A stretch of DNA of 64,000 nucleotides, from the sequence record OL956808.1; one strand, written 5' to 3'. Below the pieces are notes generated by a model. That model had not been told where the DNA came from. It did not search any database and worked only from the letters and a program-made list of their open reading frames with translations. Positions 17,538-63,923 of this stretch are shown here, one piece after another (position 1 is the first letter of the stretch; every line of letters starts with the position of its first letter). Made by a program: the position numbers and the translations under genes. The DNA is from Escherichia phage vB_EcoM-S1P5QW.

Positions 17538-18077
17538 ATGAGAACATTTTTAACTGGTCCTTATCTATCCCTGATGAATGCTTTTACACACCATTCTGAT
17601 GCTAGAGTAGAAGAAATTTGTAAAAACGAATATATCCCGCCATTTGAAGAATTACTTAAACAGTATTGCACACTTCGACTAGATGGTGGACGTCAATCCG
17701 GTAAATCAATTGCTGTGACTAACTTTGCTGCTAATTGGTTGTATGATGGCGGAACAGTTATCGTTCTTTCTAATACTTCAGCTTACGCTAAAATTTCTGC
17801 AAATAACATTAAAAAGGAATTTTCGCGTTATTCTAATGATGATATACGTTTTCGTTTATTTACTGATTCTGTGCGCAGTTTTATTGGTAATAAAGGAAGC
17901 AAGTTCAGAGGTTTATCGCTTTCGCGAATTTTGTATATAATTGATGAGCCTGTCAAATCTCCTGATATGGATAAGATTTATAGTGTCCATATTGAGACTG
18001 TACACTACTGCTGTAATAGTAAATGTTGTATTGGTGGTATTACTCGTCCACAGTTTTTCGTAATCGGAATGCAATGA
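17538..18077 (+). CDS. small P-loop NTPase-like protein
   Basis: 179 aa from ATG 17538 (RBS GAGAGAA); Walker-A-like GGRQSGKS and Walker-B-like ILYIIDE. Confidence 0.5.
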   Translation: MRTFLTGPYLSLMNAFTHHSDARVEEICKNEYIPPFEELLKQYCTLRLDGGRQSGKSIAVTNFAANWLYDGGTVIVLSNTSAYAKISANNIKKEFSRYSNDDIRFRLFTDSVRSFIGNKGSKFRGLSLSRILYIIDEPVKSPDMDKIYSVHIETVHYCCNSKCCIGGITRPQFFVIGMQ

Positions 18078-60295: not shown

Positions 60296-60553
60296 ATGCA
60301 TATTGTTTTATTTAAACCTACTCCGTATAACGTCAGGAAAAATACTCAATTCAAAGCACTTATTGCAGATACGTGGGAATTGGTGCTAGATATTCCAGCA
60401 GAAGAAAGTCCTCCATTTGGTCGAGTGGAATTTATTAAGTTTGTTGTACGTCCTACGAAGAGGCAGATTCGTCAGTGTAAAAGGCATTTTCGTAAGATCG
60501 TTAAGCTAGAGAAACAGTTTGTAACATGTGATTATGCAGAAGTTTTAAAATAG
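60296..60553 (+). CDS. hypothetical protein
   Basis: 85 aa, basic. Confidence 0.5.
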   Translation: MHIVLFKPTPYNVRKNTQFKALIADTWELVLDIPAEESPPFGRVEFIKFVVRPTKRQIRQCKRHFRKIVKLEKQFVTCDYAEVLK

Positions 60554-60555
60554 CT

Positions 60556-60585
60556 GTTTACTTTTGTTGGAAATTGAGATACTAT
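60556..60585 (+). promoter_or_regulatory. early promoter
   Basis: GTTTAC...GAGATACTATAT upstream of sp. Confidence 0.5.
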
Positions 60586-60613
60586 ATAAACATAAACTAC
60601 TGAGGAGATTATC

Positions 60614-60907
60614 ATGAAAAAATTTATTTTTGCTACAATTTTTACTTTGGCTTCTTGTGCTGCTCAGCCTGCTATGGCAGGTTATGATAAAGATTTGTGT
60701 GAATGGTCTATGACTGCAGATCAGACTGAAGTTGAAACTCAAATTGAAGCGGATATTATGAATATCGTTGAGCGTGATCGTCCTGAAATGAAAGCTGAAG
60801 TACAAAAACAGCTTAAGTCTGGTGGTGTAATGCAGTATAATTATGTTCTGTATTGCGATAAAAACTTTAATAACAAAAATATCATCGCTGAAGTGGTAGG
60901 TGAATAA
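60614..60907 (+). CDS. sp: periplasmic protein Spackle (superinfection exclusion; lysozyme inhibitor)
   Basis: 97 aa with signal peptide MKKFIFATIFTLASCAAQPAMA; length and locus match T4 sp (61.3). Confidence 0.7.
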   Translation: MKKFIFATIFTLASCAAQPAMAGYDKDLCEWSMTADQTEVETQIEADIMNIVERDRPEMKAEVQKQLKSGGVMQYNYVLYCDKNFNNKNIIAEVVGE

Positions 60908-61533
60908 TGCTTTATCAAATGCACAAGTGCAAAGATACATACAAATATAAAGGTGCCCAGTGTTATATCATTAATCGTGAAAACGCGGGTCCAGGTCATT
61001 CGCATCAATCACGGTTTGTATTCGTTAAAAACAATGAAATTATAGCAGTTGCTAATTACATGCTTGTGACTAATGATGTTAATCCGGTGCCTTTTACATA
61101 TTATAATCTAATGGATTTGGCGTACGATTATAATTGGTTTAATCATGACACTTTGGCTCATATCGAAGGCGTAGGATTTGACATCTCTTATTCTAGTTAT
61201 TCGTTGTGTCCTATGAGCCGAGCTCATAAAGAGCCTGAATATTTTTCATTTCGTCGGCGTGTAGACTTTAAACGCAGTACAGAGTATGTCGGTGGAATCT
61301 TTGTTAAAGATAATCGAATTACTCGCATTATTTATCCTTTGGGCTGTGGTCAAAAAGATATTGATGTTGATTTAGACTTTACTGAAAACATCATTAATCA
61401 TATTGCTTCTGTATATTTTGATATTGATCACAAAATTGTAATATGTGGATATGAATTGCCATCTGAAAAACAGTCTAAAGTAAATGTTTCTATTGATGAC
61501 CAAATTTTTAATGCTTTTATGAATAGAGGTTAA
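60907..61533 (+). CDS. hypothetical protein
   Basis: 208 aa, Cys/His-containing. Confidence 0.5.
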   Translation: MLYQMHKCKDTYKYKGAQCYIINRENAGPGHSHQSRFVFVKNNEIIAVANYMLVTNDVNPVPFTYYNLMDLAYDYNWFNHDTLAHIEGVGFDISYSSYSLCPMSRAHKEPEYFSFRRRVDFKRSTEYVGGIFVKDNRITRIIYPLGCGQKDIDVDLDFTENIINHIASVYFDIDHKIVICGYELPSEKQSKVNVSIDDQIFNAFMNRG

Positions 61534-61534
61534 T

Positions 61535-61699
61535 ATGAAAACATATAAAGAATTTATTAAAGAAGATATGGTCGCTGGAGATTCAGGCGGTAATCCTGAA
61601 AATATCTCTACTGGAACAACGTCAGGCGCTGTAGTAAATAAAGGCCCTGAACAGATTCCTAAAAAGAAAAAAGAGGAATCTAAAGAAAAAGAAGAGTAA
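61535..61699 (+). CDS. small protein with capsid-targeting-like N-terminus
   Basis: 54-aa ORF below the cutoff; N-terminus MKTYKEFIKE resembles internal-protein CTS; Lys/Glu-rich tail. Confidence 0.45.
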   Translation: MKTYKEFIKEDMVAGDSGGNPENISTGTTSGAVVNKGPEQIPKKKKEESKEKEE

Positions 61700-61701
61700 A
61701 A

Positions 61702-62730
61702 ATGTCATCAATACCTTGGATTGATAATGAGTTTGCATACCGTGCATTAGCTCATTTACCTAAATTCACACAAGTAAATAATAGTTCAACTTTTAAATTA
61801 CGGTTTAGATGTCCTGTTTGTGGAGATTCAAAAACCGACCAGAATAAAGCTCGTGGATGGTATTATGGTGATAATAATGAAGGAAATATTCATTGTTATA
61901 ACTGTAATTATCATGCACCAATCGGAATATATTTAAAGGAGTTTGAACCTGATTTATATCGTGAGTATATCTTTGAAATAAGAAAAGAAAAAGGTAAAAG
62001 TCGTCCAATAGAAAAACCTAAAGAACTTCCTAAGCAACCTGAGAAGAAAATAATTAAATCTCTTCCGTCATGTGTTAGATTAGATAAACTGGCGGAAGAC
62101 CATCCAATTATAAAATATGTAAAAGCTCGTTGTATTCCAAAGGATAAATGGAAATATCTTTGGTTTACAACCGAATGGCCTAAATTAGTTAATAGCATAG
62201 CACCGGGAACATACAAAAAGGAAATTTCTGAGCCTCGTCTTGTTATTCCAATTTATAATGCTAATGGAAAAGCTGAGTCTTTTCAAGGACGTGCATTAAA
62301 GAAAGATGCTCCTCAAAAATATATCACCATTAAAGCTTATCCTGAGGCAACAAAAATTTACGGTGTTGAACGAGTTAAAGATGGTGATGTATATGTTCTA
62401 GAAGGACCTATAGATTCACTTTTTATTGAAAATGGTATAGCTATTACGGGTGGTCAATTAGACCTAGAAGTTGTTCCATTTAAAGATAGACGAGTGTGGG
62501 TTTTAGATAATGAACCTCGTCACCCTGACACTATCAAACGAATGACTAAATTAGTTGATGCAGGAGAAAGGGTTATGTTTTGGGATAAATCTCCCTGGAA
62601 ATCAAAAGATGTCAATGATATGATTAGAAAGGAAGGTGCAACCCCTGAACAAATTATGGAATATATGAAAAATAATATTGCCCAGGGGTTGATGGCTAAA
62701 ATGCGGCTATCTAAATATGCTAAGATTTAA
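61702..62730 (+). CDS. 61: DNA primase gp61
   Basis: 342 aa; zinc-binding CPVCGDS...CYNCNYH and TOPRIM-like region; as recalled for T4 gp61. Confidence 0.92.
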   Translation: MSSIPWIDNEFAYRALAHLPKFTQVNNSSTFKLRFRCPVCGDSKTDQNKARGWYYGDNNEGNIHCYNCNYHAPIGIYLKEFEPDLYREYIFEIRKEKGKSRPIEKPKELPKQPEKKIIKSLPSCVRLDKLAEDHPIIKYVKARCIPKDKWKYLWFTTEWPKLVNSIAPGTYKKEISEPRLVIPIYNANGKAESFQGRALKKDAPQKYITIKAYPEATKIYGVERVKDGDVYVLEGPIDSLFIENGIAITGGQLDLEVVPFKDRRVWVLDNEPRHPDTIKRMTKLVDAGERVMFWDKSPWKSKDVNDMIRKEGATPEQIMEYMKNNIAQGLMAKMRLSKYAKI

Positions 62731-62927
62731 ATCAACCCAACTAAAGCAAATGCTAAATCTACAAATGTATCAAGAGTAACTACTGGAATATTAATACCAT
62801 GTGCAATTGCAATTGGTGATAAAATAAAGTTCCAGAGTAAAATTCCTACCATAGCAGAAATAGTAAAAGCTATACGTTTTTTATTACCTTTTATGGCATT
62901 AACAAGTGCCATTAATTTTTGTACCAT
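62727..62927 (-). CDS. small membrane protein on opposite strand
   Basis: 66 aa, two hydrophobic segments; strong SD AAGGAGGA 7 nt upstream of ATG on the minus strand; convergent with primase. Confidence 0.65.
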   Translation of the reverse strand: MVQKLMALVNAIKGNKKRIAFTISAMVGILLWNFILSPIAIAHGINIPVVTLDTFVDLAFALVGLI

Positions 62928-62998
62928 ATGTCCTCCTTATTGCTTTATATATTTATTGTATAATTAATCTACTAACCCATGAATTGAAAGGAAAAATA

Positions 62999-63517
62999 AT
63001 GGCTTACTTTAATGAATGTGCTCATTTGATCGAAGGTGTTGATAAAGCAAATCGTGCATATGCTGAGAATATTATGCACAATATTGACCCACTGCAGGTT
63101 ATGCTTGACATGCAGCGGCATTTACAGATTCGTTTGGCTAATGATAAACCAGAAACAAATCGTCATCCTGATTCACTTGAAACTGCAGGAGAAGTTCTTG
63201 CTTGGTTGCGAAACCAAGACGATTATATCGCAGATGAAACTCGCGAGCTATATACTTCTCTTGGTGGTATGAGTAATGGTGAAAAAGAAGCTTCTGCTGT
63301 ATGGAAACCTTGGAAGAAACGTTATTCTGAAATGCAATCCAAGAAAATTCAAGATTTATCTCCTGAAGATCAGCTTGAAATTAAATTTGAACTGATTGAC
63401 CAATTTCACTTTTTCATGAATAAATTTATTGCTCTTGGAATGTCAGCTGAAGAAATCTTTAAACTTTATTACCTGAAAAATGCTGAAAACTTCGCTCGTC
63501 AAGACCGAGGTTATTAA
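62999..63517 (+). CDS. 56: dCTP pyrophosphatase gp56 (MazG-like)
   Basis: 172 aa from ATG 62999 (RBS AAAGGAAAA, -10 TATAAT upstream); T4 gp56 is ~171 aa. Confidence 0.8.
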   Translation: MAYFNECAHLIEGVDKANRAYAENIMHNIDPLQVMLDMQRHLQIRLANDKPETNRHPDSLETAGEVLAWLRNQDDYIADETRELYTSLGGMSNGEKEASAVWKPWKKRYSEMQSKKIQDLSPEDQLEIKFELIDQFHFFMNKFIALGMSAEEIFKLYYLKNAENFARQDRGY

Positions 63518-63717
63518 TGGCTCGTTTAAATAAGCGTCAGCTCAAGAAAGCCCATAAGAAACGTATTGACCAGCTATTTAAAGATTATAACAAGGAGCTC
63601 GTATGTGAGCTCTTAACTAATCAACTTCGTATGGTTGATTGGGTTATAGAAGAAGGTCCTGACGAAATTTTTGTCAGCGAAGAAGCCTTAAAATTAATTA
63701 TAGAGCATTCAAAATGA
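63517..63717 (+). CDS. hypothetical protein
   Basis: 66 aa, basic N-terminus. Confidence 0.45.
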   Translation: MARLNKRQLKKAHKKRIDQLFKDYNKELVCELLTNQLRMVDWVIEEGPDEIFVSEEALKLIIEHSK

Positions 63718-63923
63718 AATTTGATTTCTACGCGTGGCAAAAAGCCGGGAGACCGGCTACTCGAGCATTTGGTTCTGATGGATATAATATTAGAGCCCAT
63801 TGGAAATTTAATGCTCCAGAAGATTATTCTCCGGTAATTATTAACGGCGATGTTGTTATATTAACTAAAATCGGGTATTTTAACGTTCCGCGAGAATTTA
63901 TTATAAATAATCATGTAATTTAA
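63714..63923 (+). CDS. hypothetical protein
   Basis: 69 aa. Confidence 0.45.
   Translation: MKFDFYAWQKAGRPATRAFGSDGYNIRAHWKFNAPEDYSPVIINGDVVILTKIGYFNVPREFIINNHVI
63902..63909 (+). promoter_or_regulatory. late promoter TATAAATA upstream of soc
   Basis: exact octamer 30 nt before soc start. Confidence 0.55.

What the first reader, a model, noticed from the sequence alone, without database searches (positions are those of the whole stretch)
62727..62927. Opposite-strand small membrane protein gene convergent with primase
Almost all genes in this early region are on the plus strand, yet a 66-aa ORF on the minus strand has a near-consensus Shine-Dalgarno (AAGGAGGA) 7 nt from its ATG and encodes two hydrophobic segments. 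Its 3' end abuts the primase stop codon. Small counter-oriented membrane proteins in phages are often holin-like, toxin-like or exclusion factors.
Basis: seen in the sequence. Interest (0 to 1): 0.5.

Follow-up and report, generated by a model that had tools for sequence, protein, structure and literature searches.

The report
Conserved late T-even membrane-protein gene dam.1
The 66-codon reverse-strand ORF next to the primase gene is a real, conserved T4-family gene (called dam.1 in one T4 record, missing from the T4 reference annotation) that is most likely switched on late in infection and makes a tiny inner-membrane protein of unknown function, so it is a catalogued but uncharacterised gene rather than a new kind of element.

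Summary
A 66-aa ORF lies on the minus strand at 62727-62927. AAGGAGGA sits 3 nt before its ATG, and its stop codon overlaps the primase stop.

It codes for protein. dN/dS is 0.1-0.35, and variable sites fall 24/4/35 by codon position (p = 8e-6). A 62-69 aa homologue occupies the same counter-oriented slot between primase (gp61) and dCTPase (gp56) in at least seven named Tevenvirinae genera. All tested members match phrog_2024, "unknown function".

It is annotated "hypothetical protein" in hundreds of genomes. T4T names it dam.1. The T4 reference record carries the ORF but does not annotate it.

Every lineage examined has a T4 late-promoter box (NATAAATA, perfect TATAAATA in two) just upstream of the Shine-Dalgarno site. 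T4 early and middle transcription never runs in this direction. I therefore read it as a late gene; no expression data were found.

Hydropathy and AlphaFold2 indicate one transmembrane helix, N-terminus inside, with invariant Trp-Asn, Pro and Gly. A short amphipathic C-terminal helix follows, and it is probably not a second span.

Nothing supports a holin, toxin or exclusion role. My working guess is an accessory envelope or lysis-timing factor (about 0.3).

The parts
62727..62927 (-). Coding sequence of the 66-aa protein (stop included). It is the orthologue of T4T dam.1 and a member of phrog_2024.
   Evidence: ORF list. PHROG hit E = 1.4e-31. dN/dS 0.1-0.35 and codon-position bias. The T4 orthologue is 95% identical. 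Named dam.1 in HM137666.
62931..62938 (-). Shine-Dalgarno sequence AAGGAGGA, 3 nt before the ATG.
   Evidence: Read. A GGAGG or AGGAG core at the same distance is present in all ten lineages inspected.
62950..62957 (-). Late-promoter box AATAAATA, the A(-13) variant of the T4 consensus TATAAATA.
   Evidence: The same box is conserved upstream of the orthologues despite diverged flanks. A(-13) is the commonest natural variant, at 9 of 50 T4 late promoters (PMC2988020).
62944..62944 (-). Predicted late transcription start, inferred only. It gives a 17-nt leader, AGCAAUAAGGAGGACAU.
   Evidence: Inference from the rule that the box occupies -13 to -6 (PMC1524935) applied to the sequence. Not measured.
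62802..62873 (-). Codons for the transmembrane helix, residues about 19-42, containing the invariant Trp32-Asn33 and Pro38.
   Evidence: Hydropathy. AlphaFold2 helix 16-42. Invariant columns in the 28-sequence alignment.
62736..62774 (-). Codons for the C-terminal amphipathic or hydrophobic helix, residues about 52-64, with Asp53 and Asp57. Probably periplasmic or interfacial rather than a full span.
   Evidence: AlphaFold2 helix 52-63/64. Insertion energy +6 to +12 kcal/mol for the last 19 residues across the family.
62727..62730 (.). 4-nt tail-to-tail overlap with the primase gene (gp61), with overlapping stop codons.
   Evidence: The same 4-nt overlap occurs in T4, moha, STP4-a, dhabil and Potts1.

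Best explanation
This is a genuine monocistronic gene of the T-even phage subfamily. It is the orthologue of the ORF named dam.1 in T4T.

Shown:
- It evolves under purifying selection on its protein.
- It keeps its position and opposite orientation between primase (gp61) and dCTPase (gp56) in at least seven named Tevenvirinae genera.
- It has a strong ribosome-binding site.
- It is preceded in every lineage inspected by the T4 late-promoter box.

Inferred: it is transcribed late, after replication starts, by host RNA polymerase carrying gp55 and gp33 and activated by the gp45 sliding clamp. Transcription would start about 17 nt upstream of the ATG. The transcript runs antisense to the early and middle transcripts that cross this region.

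Inferred from hydropathy, charge distribution and AlphaFold2: the product is a bitopic inner-membrane protein.
- A basic N-terminal amphipathic helix (net +5) stays in the cytoplasm.
- One transmembrane helix (about residues 19-42) carries an invariant Trp-Asn pair and a Pro kink.
- A tail of about 24 residues on the periplasmic side forms a turn (HG...P) and a short acidic-faced amphipathic helix that lies on or dips into the outer leaflet.

Most likely mode of action (speculative, about 0.3): the conserved polar Asn and the small residues in the helix drive helix-helix binding within the membrane, either to itself or to another membrane protein present late in infection. On this reading the protein is an accessory modulator of late envelope events such as lysis timing, lysis inhibition or membrane-associated assembly. 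It would not be the holin itself.
For: Coding
- Pairwise dN/dS is 0.09-0.36 within and between genera.
- Within-genus variable sites fall 24/4/35 by codon position, chi-square p = 8e-6.
- tblastn finds the frame open over at least 80% of its length in 691 of 703 phage records. Identity drops to 46-57% in other genera and about 30-40% in Klebsiella phages.
- Length differences between orthologues (62-69 aa) are whole codons, and the frame stays open in all.

Synteny
- It is the only reverse-oriented gene in the 41...61 / 56...soc block in Tequatrovirus, Mosigvirus, Gaprivervirus, Jiaodavirus, Gelderlandvirus, Dhakavirus, Slopekvirus and two metagenomic lineages.
- All tested members hit phrog_2024 at E = 1e-24 to 1e-31.

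Late promoter
- The box upstream of the Shine-Dalgarno site reads AATAAATA (window, moha, dhabil), GATAAATA (T4, L023), CATAAATA (VR20, Boboto), ATTAAATA (STP4-a) and perfect TATAAATA (Potts1, L024). Flanks are otherwise diverged.
- ATAAATA is under-represented in the window, 19 found against 40 expected, with only 5 on the minus strand.
- The sites followed by a Shine-Dalgarno site and an ATG belong to ORFs I recognise by sequence as the late genes e, soc and 49. Gene 49 uses the same AATAAATA variant.
- Published rules: 50 T4 late promoters are listed, 32 perfect and 9 with A(-13). All early and middle transcripts share one polarity (PMC2988020). T(-13) is poorly conserved in relatives (PMC1524935).
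- No sigma-70-type promoter lies on the minus strand upstream.

Membrane protein
- Hessa insertion energy for the best 19-residue window is -2.4 to +3.6 kcal/mol. The N-terminus has net charge +1 to +5 and the C-terminus 0 to -2.
- AlphaFold2 gives helices 2-12, 16-42 and 52-63 at mean pLDDT 80.
- W32, N33, P38 and G44 are invariant across 28 diverse members.
Against: - There are no expression data of any kind. The T4 omics paper examined (PMC9697503) does not mention unannotated, antisense or strand-specific features. The T4 reference annotation lacks this ORF.
- The late-promoter box deviates from consensus at -13 in most lineages. The activity of G(-13) or C(-13) variants in vivo is unknown.
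- In VR20 and Boboto the box lies only 5 and 2 nt from the Shine-Dalgarno site. The predicted start would therefore fall at its edge or inside it.
- Topology rests on hydropathy and a monomer model only. A helical hairpin, or cleavage after the conserved P-x-A-x-(A/S/T) stretch, cannot be excluded.
- The functional guess (lysis or envelope modulator) has no direct support. There is no homology to any characterised protein, no neighbouring lysis genes, and no literature.
Confidence: 0.8

Rival explanations
1. It is a holin or pinholin-like hole-former: a small late membrane protein that permeabilises the inner membrane to time lysis.
For: It is small, hydrophobic and probably late. One UniRef entry for a member is labelled 'Holin' (P0025). 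The acidic face of the C-terminal helix and the Asn in the membrane span could line a pore.
Against: No match to any holin family in Pfam, NCBIfam or PHROGs. There is no charged cytoplasmic C-terminal tail; the C-terminus is hydrophobic. The gene is not in a lysis cassette; it sits between primase and dCTPase. From my own knowledge, T-even phages already have the holin T. The second hydrophobic segment is not predicted to span the membrane. The 'Holin' label is one name among 115 clusters otherwise called hypothetical.
Confidence: 0.07
2. It is a secreted peptide precursor. Residues 1-42 act as a long Sec signal peptide, cut by signal peptidase after the conserved P-x-A-x-A stretch. This releases a 24-residue hydrophobic, acidic peptide (HGINIPVVTLDTFVDLAFALVGLI) into the periplasm or outer leaflet late in infection.
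For: The layout is a basic N-region, a hydrophobic core, a helix-breaking Pro38, then Ala40-x-Ala42 before His43-Gly44. Pro38 and Gly44 are invariant, Ala40 is at least 90% conserved, and position 42 is always small (A, S or T). The acidic residue at 53 and Pro48 in the putative mature part are also conserved.
Against: The hydrophobic core is about 19-24 residues, which is the length of a signal anchor rather than a cleavable signal. Thr at -1 in the Slopekvirus and Jiaodavirus members is a poor signal-peptidase site, so no single cut position fits all members. The invariant Trp-Asn inside the hydrophobic core is unusual for a disposable signal peptide. AlphaFold2 models one continuous helix 16-42. 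No signal-peptide predictor was available.
Confidence: 0.1
3. It is a superinfection-exclusion or anti-defence factor, comparable in role to Imm, Sp or small membrane proteins that block host abortive-infection systems.
For: The small membrane-protein architecture fits. The spackle gene sp lies 1.8 kb away in the same block.
Against: Exclusion and anti-defence functions are needed early, and T4 imm and sp are early genes (my own knowledge). This gene faces the late-only direction and carries a late box, with no sigma-70 promoter. It has no homology to Imm or Sp families. It is conserved irrespective of host genus: Escherichia, Klebsiella, Salmonella, Citrobacter.
Confidence: 0.12
4. The ORF is not translated. 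The conserved element is a non-coding spacer, an antisense RNA against the primase or gene 56 transcripts, or a cis-acting replication-origin sequence.
For: It is unannotated in the curated T4 reference. 51 minus-strand ORFs of 66 aa or more exist in the window, so such ORFs are common. The site is about 100 bp from the position equivalent to T4 oriA. In Tequatrovirus there is no terminator before the primase gene, so any transcript would run antisense into gene 61.
Against: dN/dS is well below 1 and substitutions concentrate at third positions. Protein similarity persists at 25-55% identity where synonymous sites are saturated (dS 1.3-2.6). The frame stays open and length differences are whole codons across genera. 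A Shine-Dalgarno site at fixed spacing is conserved everywhere.
Confidence: 0.03

Closest known systems
T4T gene dam.1 (ADJ39749.1, HM137666) = phrog_2024 = pVOG VOG1982. These are the 'hypothetical protein' entries between genes 61 and 56/dam in several hundred Tevenvirinae genomes.
   Same: It is the same gene: 95% identical protein to the T4/T4T copy, with the same position, orientation and 4-nt overlap with gene 61. The PHROG match is full length at E = 1e-31.
   Different: In this window dam is absent. The gene therefore sits back-to-back with gene 56, 72 bp away, and its late box overlaps the gene 56 middle promoter. In T4 the dam gene lies between them.
T4 late genes embedded in early regions with the layout TATAAATA - short leader - GGAGG - ATG (e, soc, 49).
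   Same: It has the same promoter, Shine-Dalgarno and start-codon architecture. Gene 49 in this window uses the identical AATAAATA variant.
   Different: It is transcribed against the flow of the surrounding early and middle genes, whereas e, soc and 49 here are co-oriented with them. Late timing has not been measured.
Holins, especially small class II holins and pinholins such as S21 (68 aa), and the T4 holin T.
   Same: Small size, membrane location, probable late expression.
   Different: No sequence or profile similarity. The charged tail is N-terminal rather than C-terminal. Probably one span. Not linked to an endolysin gene.
T4 RI antiholin (N-terminal signal-anchor-release domain plus periplasmic domain). 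The comparison is recalled from my own knowledge and was not tested.
   Same: N-in/C-out layout. The membrane segment is only weakly hydrophobic in several genera, at +2.4 to +3.6 kcal/mol.
   Different: The periplasmic part is only about 24 residues. No homology was tested or detected. RI has no long basic N-terminal segment.
Bacterial small bitopic regulators of membrane proteins, for example MgrB (47 aa, N-in/C-out). This is a resemblance in architecture only, from my own knowledge.
   Same: Very small single-pass protein with a short periplasmic tail and a conserved polar residue in the span. This suggests action by binding a larger membrane partner.
   Different: No sequence relationship, a phage late gene, and the partner is unknown.

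Membership tests
phrog_2024 / T4T dam.1 family | Significant full-length match to the family profile | tested here: met
   E = 1.4e-31, residues 2-66 against profile positions 1-65 of 65. Members from five other genera score 1e-24 to 1e-28.
phrog_2024 / T4T dam.1 family | Conserved position and orientation: counter-oriented, tail-to-tail with primase gene 61, on the gene 56 side | tested here: met
T4 late gene | TATAAATA-type box about 6 nt upstream of the transcription start, with no -35 element needed | tested here: met
   AATAAATA at 62950-62957. The box is conserved in ten lineages and is a perfect consensus in two. The A(-13) variant is documented in T4.
T4 late gene | Orientation compatible only with late transcription (clockwise on the T4 map) | tested here: met
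   The ORF is on the plus strand of NC_000866. Early and middle transcripts all run counter-clockwise (PMC2988020).
T4 late gene | RNA appears after replication onset and depends on gp55, gp33 and gp45 | not testable with these tools
   No strand-specific data were found.
Holin | At least one transmembrane domain in a small protein | tested here: met
Holin | Hydrophilic, highly charged C-terminal cytoplasmic tail | tested here: not met
   The C-terminal 15 residues are hydrophobic, with net charge 0 to -2. The basic segment is N-terminal.
Holin | Gene located in a lysis cassette or next to an endolysin | tested here: not met
   The neighbours are primase and dCTPase (or dam) in all genera.
Holin | Similarity to a described holin family | tested here: not met
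   No Pfam or NCBIfam hit even at E = 10. The only PHROG hit is of unknown function. Foldseek found only family members at a meaningful E-value or probability.
Holin | Lethal, timed membrane hole formation | not testable with these tools
   This needs an expression or complementation experiment.
Superinfection-exclusion proteins of T4 (Imm, Sp) | Early expression from a sigma-70 or MotA-dependent promoter | tested here: not met
   No sigma-70-like promoter lies on the minus strand upstream. The orientation excludes early and middle transcription.
Superinfection-exclusion proteins of T4 (Imm, Sp) | Homology to Imm or Spackle families | tested here: not met
   Spackle is a separate gene in this window.
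Sec-type cleavable signal peptide (secreted peptide precursor) | Basic N-region, hydrophobic core of about 7-15 residues, small residues at -3 and -1 of one consistent cleavage site | tested here: inconclusive
   The basic N-region and P-x-A-x-(A/S/T) are conserved. Against this, the core is 19-24 residues long and the -1 residue is Thr in several genera. No dedicated predictor was available.
Type I toxin | Small hydrophobic toxic peptide whose mRNA is controlled by a cis- or trans-antisense RNA | not tested
   Toxicity cannot be assessed. Early and middle read-through from gene 61 would be antisense to it, but that holds for any counter-oriented T4 late gene.

The most novel reading that the evidence does not exclude
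The protein is a previously unrecognised player in T-even lysis control or cell-envelope signalling. One form of this is a membrane partner of the holin/antiholin machinery acting through its Trp-Asn helix. The bolder form is a precursor cleaved after P-x-A-x-A to release a 24-residue hydrophobic, acidic peptide outside the cytoplasm late in infection. Either would add a conserved component to a textbook system, and one that is not annotated in the T4 reference genome.
Probability: 0.15. Interest if true: 0.7.

Novelty: already known. Interest (0 to 1): 0.3.

Why it matters
T4 is the reference phage, yet its RefSeq and GenBank reference records (NC_000866, AF158101) leave a 310-bp "gap" between dam and gene 61. 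That gap holds this conserved gene. Omics and knock-down screens built on the reference annotation would therefore miss it.

The protein is also hard to see by standard proteomics. After Arg18 it has no Lys or Arg, so trypsin leaves one 48-residue hydrophobic peptide.

A late, envelope-located protein conserved across at least seven named Tevenvirinae genera, on hosts from Escherichia to Klebsiella and Salmonella, is a reasonable candidate for an unassigned step in lysis timing, lysis inhibition or membrane-associated assembly.

Practical outcome: add dam.1 to the T4 reference annotation and include it in deletion and interaction screens. As it stands this is a catalogued hypothetical gene and not a new kind of element.

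Tried and rejected
- Pfam, NCBIfam and PDB sequence searches, with single sequences and with a 28-member profile, gave nothing significant. The best were a P13 porin at E = 0.025 and YejA at E = 0.11, both chance-level.
- Foldseek of the AlphaFold2 model against viral (BFVD) and PDB libraries returned only family members at a meaningful E-value or probability. A 66-residue helical model has little discriminating power.
- An exhaustive HMMER search of 1.8 billion representatives gave 9 hits. Three long proteins (P0032, P0036, P0037) looked interesting because they matched in 6-14 stretches. On reading them, they are tandem-repeat proteins: a junk repeat translation, an SH3b-like repeat wall protein, and a PQQ-type beta-propeller with 'LLWNYTTG..SSPAVANGVVY' repeats. 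I rejected these as compositional or repeat artefacts.
- Literature searches covered T4 ribosome profiling and small proteins, T4 start-site maps, 'dam.1', and gene 61/dam opposite-strand ORFs. Nothing on this gene was found. Miller et al. 2003 (PMC150520) is not held.
- Stray annotation labels were traced to automatic transfer and rejected. These are 'putative head morphogenesis protein' (T2 AP018813, BW-1), 'dCTP pyrophosphatase' (dhabil_90), 'DNA packaging ATPase' (SAKp28) and 'Holin' (OE5505). The same T2 record also gives the head-morphogenesis label to 61.1.
- A sigma-70 promoter or intrinsic terminator for the ORF was sought. None was found on the minus strand.
Full report
**1. What is in the sequence**

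The window is the early replication block of a T4-type phage (genus Tequatrovirus), written in the reverse of the usual T4 map. The plus-strand order is helicase 41, dmd, 61.4, sp, 61.2, 61.1, primase 61 (61702-62730), then dCTPase 56, whose ATG is at 63000.

The reported ORF is there. It lies at 62727-62927 on the minus strand and has 66 codons starting with ATG. The minus strand upstream reads AATAAATA-TATAAAGCAAT-AAGGAGGA-CAT-ATG. The Shine-Dalgarno octamer (62931-62938) therefore ends 3 nt before the start codon. The ORF and primase overlap tail-to-tail by 4 nt, and their TAA stop codons share bases.

An ORF of this length proves nothing on its own. The window has 51 minus-strand ORFs of 66 aa or more, including clearly antisense ones of 131 and 101 aa nearby. 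This ORF differs in that no plus-strand gene lies over it. Without it there would be a 269-bp hole in a tightly packed genome.

**2. It is a real protein-coding gene**

- megablast finds the region in about 500 phage records at 90% identity or more. Most annotate a "hypothetical protein" there.
- tblastn finds it in 703 records, 691 of them covering at least 80% of the length. A second population shows only 46-57% amino-acid identity. A search with a divergent member reaches Klebsiella phages at about 30-40%.
- Pairwise Nei-Gojobori dN/dS is 0.09-0.36, both within genera and between genera where dS is saturated.
- Within-genus variable sites fall 24, 4 and 35 at codon positions 1, 2 and 3, chi-square p = 8e-6.
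- Orthologues differ in length (62-69 aa) only by whole codons, and the frame stays open in all.
- All tested members hit one PHROG, phrog_2024 "unknown function", at E = 1e-24 to 1e-31.

**3. Synteny**

In every lineage fetched, the gene is the single counter-oriented gene between the primase and the dCTPase side of the block.

| Genus or lineage | Phage or locus |
|---|---|
| Tequatrovirus | window, T4, UFV-AREG1, T2 |
| Mosigvirus | moha |
| Gaprivervirus | VR20, CJ20 |
| Jiaodavirus | Boboto |
| Gelderlandvirus | STP4-a |
| Dhakavirus | dhabil |
| Slopekvirus | Potts1 |
| Two metagenomic lineages | L023, L024 |

A Foldseek hit also suggests a Karamvirus member, CIP9.

What lies between this gene and gene 56 varies. 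It is nothing in the window, dam in T4, dam plus a 546-bp ORF in T2, and one or two small ORFs in Potts1 and the metagenomic lineages L023 and L024. In L023 a 124-aa ORF also lies between it and the primase. In the other lineages it stays next to the primase 3' end, often with the same 4-nt overlap.

A profile search returned 115 clusters of 41-73 aa, the full-length ones 62-69 aa. Nearly all are named "hypothetical". An exhaustive HMMER scan found nothing credible outside this group.

**4. Annotation status**

The curated T4 reference (NC_000866.4 / AF158101.6) carries the ORF intact at 17738-17938 on the plus strand, with 3 amino-acid differences from the window. It does not annotate it, and leaves a 310-bp gap between dam and 61. 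The 1984 gene 69 record X01416 also omits it. The T4T record HM137666 annotates it as gene dam.1, "hypothetical protein", and newer T4 records call it hypothetical. The ORF is therefore already catalogued, but I found no paper that discusses it.

**5. When it is expressed (inferred)**

Upstream of the Shine-Dalgarno site, every lineage has the T4 late-promoter box.

| Box | Lineages |
|---|---|
| AATAAATA | window, moha, dhabil |
| GATAAATA | T4, L023 |
| CATAAATA | VR20, Boboto |
| ATTAAATA | STP4-a |
| TATAAATA (perfect) | Potts1, L024 |

The sequences around the box have diverged in both content and length.

- The published description of T4 late promoters lists 50 sites: 32 are perfect and 9 have A at -13. 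It also states that early and middle transcripts all share one polarity, whereas late transcripts can have either (PMC2988020).
- T(-13) is poorly conserved in T4 relatives (PMC1524935).
- In this window the heptamer ATAAATA is depleted: 19 found against 40 ± 6 expected, with only 5 on the minus strand.
- The sites followed by a Shine-Dalgarno site and an ATG belong to ORFs I recognise by sequence as the late genes e (16288 and 16301), soc (63902) and 49 (35680). Gene 49 uses the same AATAAATA variant.
- No sigma-70-type promoter lies on the minus strand upstream.

I therefore assign the gene to the late class. It would be transcribed by gp55/gp33-RNA polymerase with the gp45 clamp, from a start near 62944. 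No terminator separates it from primase in Tequatrovirus. In Boboto, a GC-rich hairpin fills the 18-nt gap. This timing is an inference. No strand-specific data were found.

**6. What the protein looks like**

- The 28-member alignment has invariant Trp32, Asn33, Pro38 and Gly44. Ala40, Pro48 and Gly64 are nearly invariant. An acidic residue at position 53 recurs in the members shown.
- The best 19-residue window (about residues 18-42) has a summed insertion energy of -2.4 to +3.6 kcal/mol across genera. The last 19 residues score +6 to +12.
- The N-terminal segment carries net +1 to +5 and the C-terminal part 0 to -2.
- AlphaFold2, run alone and with the alignment, gives helices 2-12, 16-42 and 52-63 at mean pLDDT about 80.

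The simplest reading is a single-pass protein with the N-terminus in the cytoplasm. The span is kinked by a proline and carries a polar Asn. A short periplasmic tail follows, whose amphipathic helix (Asp53 and Asp57 on one face) lies at the membrane surface.

Two alternatives remain open. One is a helical hairpin with a re-entrant C-terminus. The other is signal-peptidase cleavage after the conserved P-x-A-x-(A/S/T). The long hydrophobic core, and Thr at -1 in several genera, argue against the second.

**7. Function**

No homology to anything characterised was found in Pfam, NCBIfam, PHROGs, PDB sequences or fold libraries.

- Holin features fail on tail charge, gene context and homology.
- Exclusion-factor features fail on timing.
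- Toxicity cannot be judged.

A conserved Asn and small residues inside a lone membrane helix are typical of helix-helix association. I therefore favour, at about 0.3, an accessory role through binding itself or a partner membrane protein during late envelope events such as lysis timing, lysis inhibition or membrane-linked assembly. This last step is conjecture.

**8. Verdict**

The holin, toxin and exclusion suggestions are not. The element is an already catalogued, uncharacterised gene family (dam.1 / phrog_2024). The modestly useful points are that the T4 reference annotation omits it, that it is almost certainly a late gene, and that its product would escape tryptic proteomics.

Noticed in passing
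window 62941-62964 (+ strand): A MotA-type middle promoter for gene 56: MotA box TGCTTTA at 62941-62947, an 11-nt spacer, then TATAAT at 62959-62964. It lies on the opposite strand directly over the ORF's late-promoter box (62950-62957). It corresponds to T4 P(M)16.53, whose transcript primes replication at oriA according to the T4 record's note. Two temporally distinct, divergent promoters therefore share about 25 bp.
   Followed up: partly
window 62928-62999, compared with L001 2787-3738 (T4): The dam methyltransferase gene that T4 carries between this ORF and gene 56 is absent at this position in the window, as in UFV-AREG1. T2 has dam plus an extra 546-bp ORF there. The 61-56 interval is a variable-content slot, while the small ORF keeps its place near the primase 3' end. 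Whether the window phage has dam elsewhere was not checked.
   Followed up: partly
window 62893-62921 (+ strand): A terminator-like hairpin, ATGGCATTAACAAGTGCCAT followed by TAATTTTTGT, lies on the plus strand inside the 5' part of the ORF. It is the only such site in 61600-63600 (1 found, 1.3 expected). It is also present in T4. It might attenuate read-through from primase before the gene 56 promoter. It is weak, with only 3 G-C pairs.
   Followed up: no
window 63517-63923: Two small plus-strand ORFs (66 and 69 aa) follow gene 56, where T4 has the homing endonuclease segF. The soc late promoter TATAAATA sits at 63902-63909, just before the start of soc.
   Followed up: no
whole window: The late-promoter core ATAAATA is about two-fold under-represented: 19 found against 40 ± 6 expected in dinucleotide-preserving shuffles. 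This is consistent with selection against stray late promoters.
   Followed up: partly
window 60545-60940 (-) and 61911-62216 (-): Long antisense ORFs of 131 and 101 aa overlap sp/61.4 and the primase gene. They are probably chance ORFs of an AT-rich genome, but conservation was not checked.
   Followed up: no
public records: Members of this family carry contradictory automatic names: 'Holin' (OE5505), 'putative head morphogenesis protein' (T2 AP018813, BW-1), 'dCTP pyrophosphatase' (dhabil_90) and 'DNA packaging ATPase' (SAKp28). CJ20 annotates an upstream TTG start that adds 10 residues and has no conserved counterpart.
   Followed up: partly
L016 2660-2690 (Klebsiella phage Boboto): In Jiaodavirus the ORF and primase do not overlap. 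They are separated by 18 nt that include the GC-rich hairpin GGGGCTTTGGCCCC, a possible bidirectional terminator that Tequatrovirus lacks.
   Followed up: no
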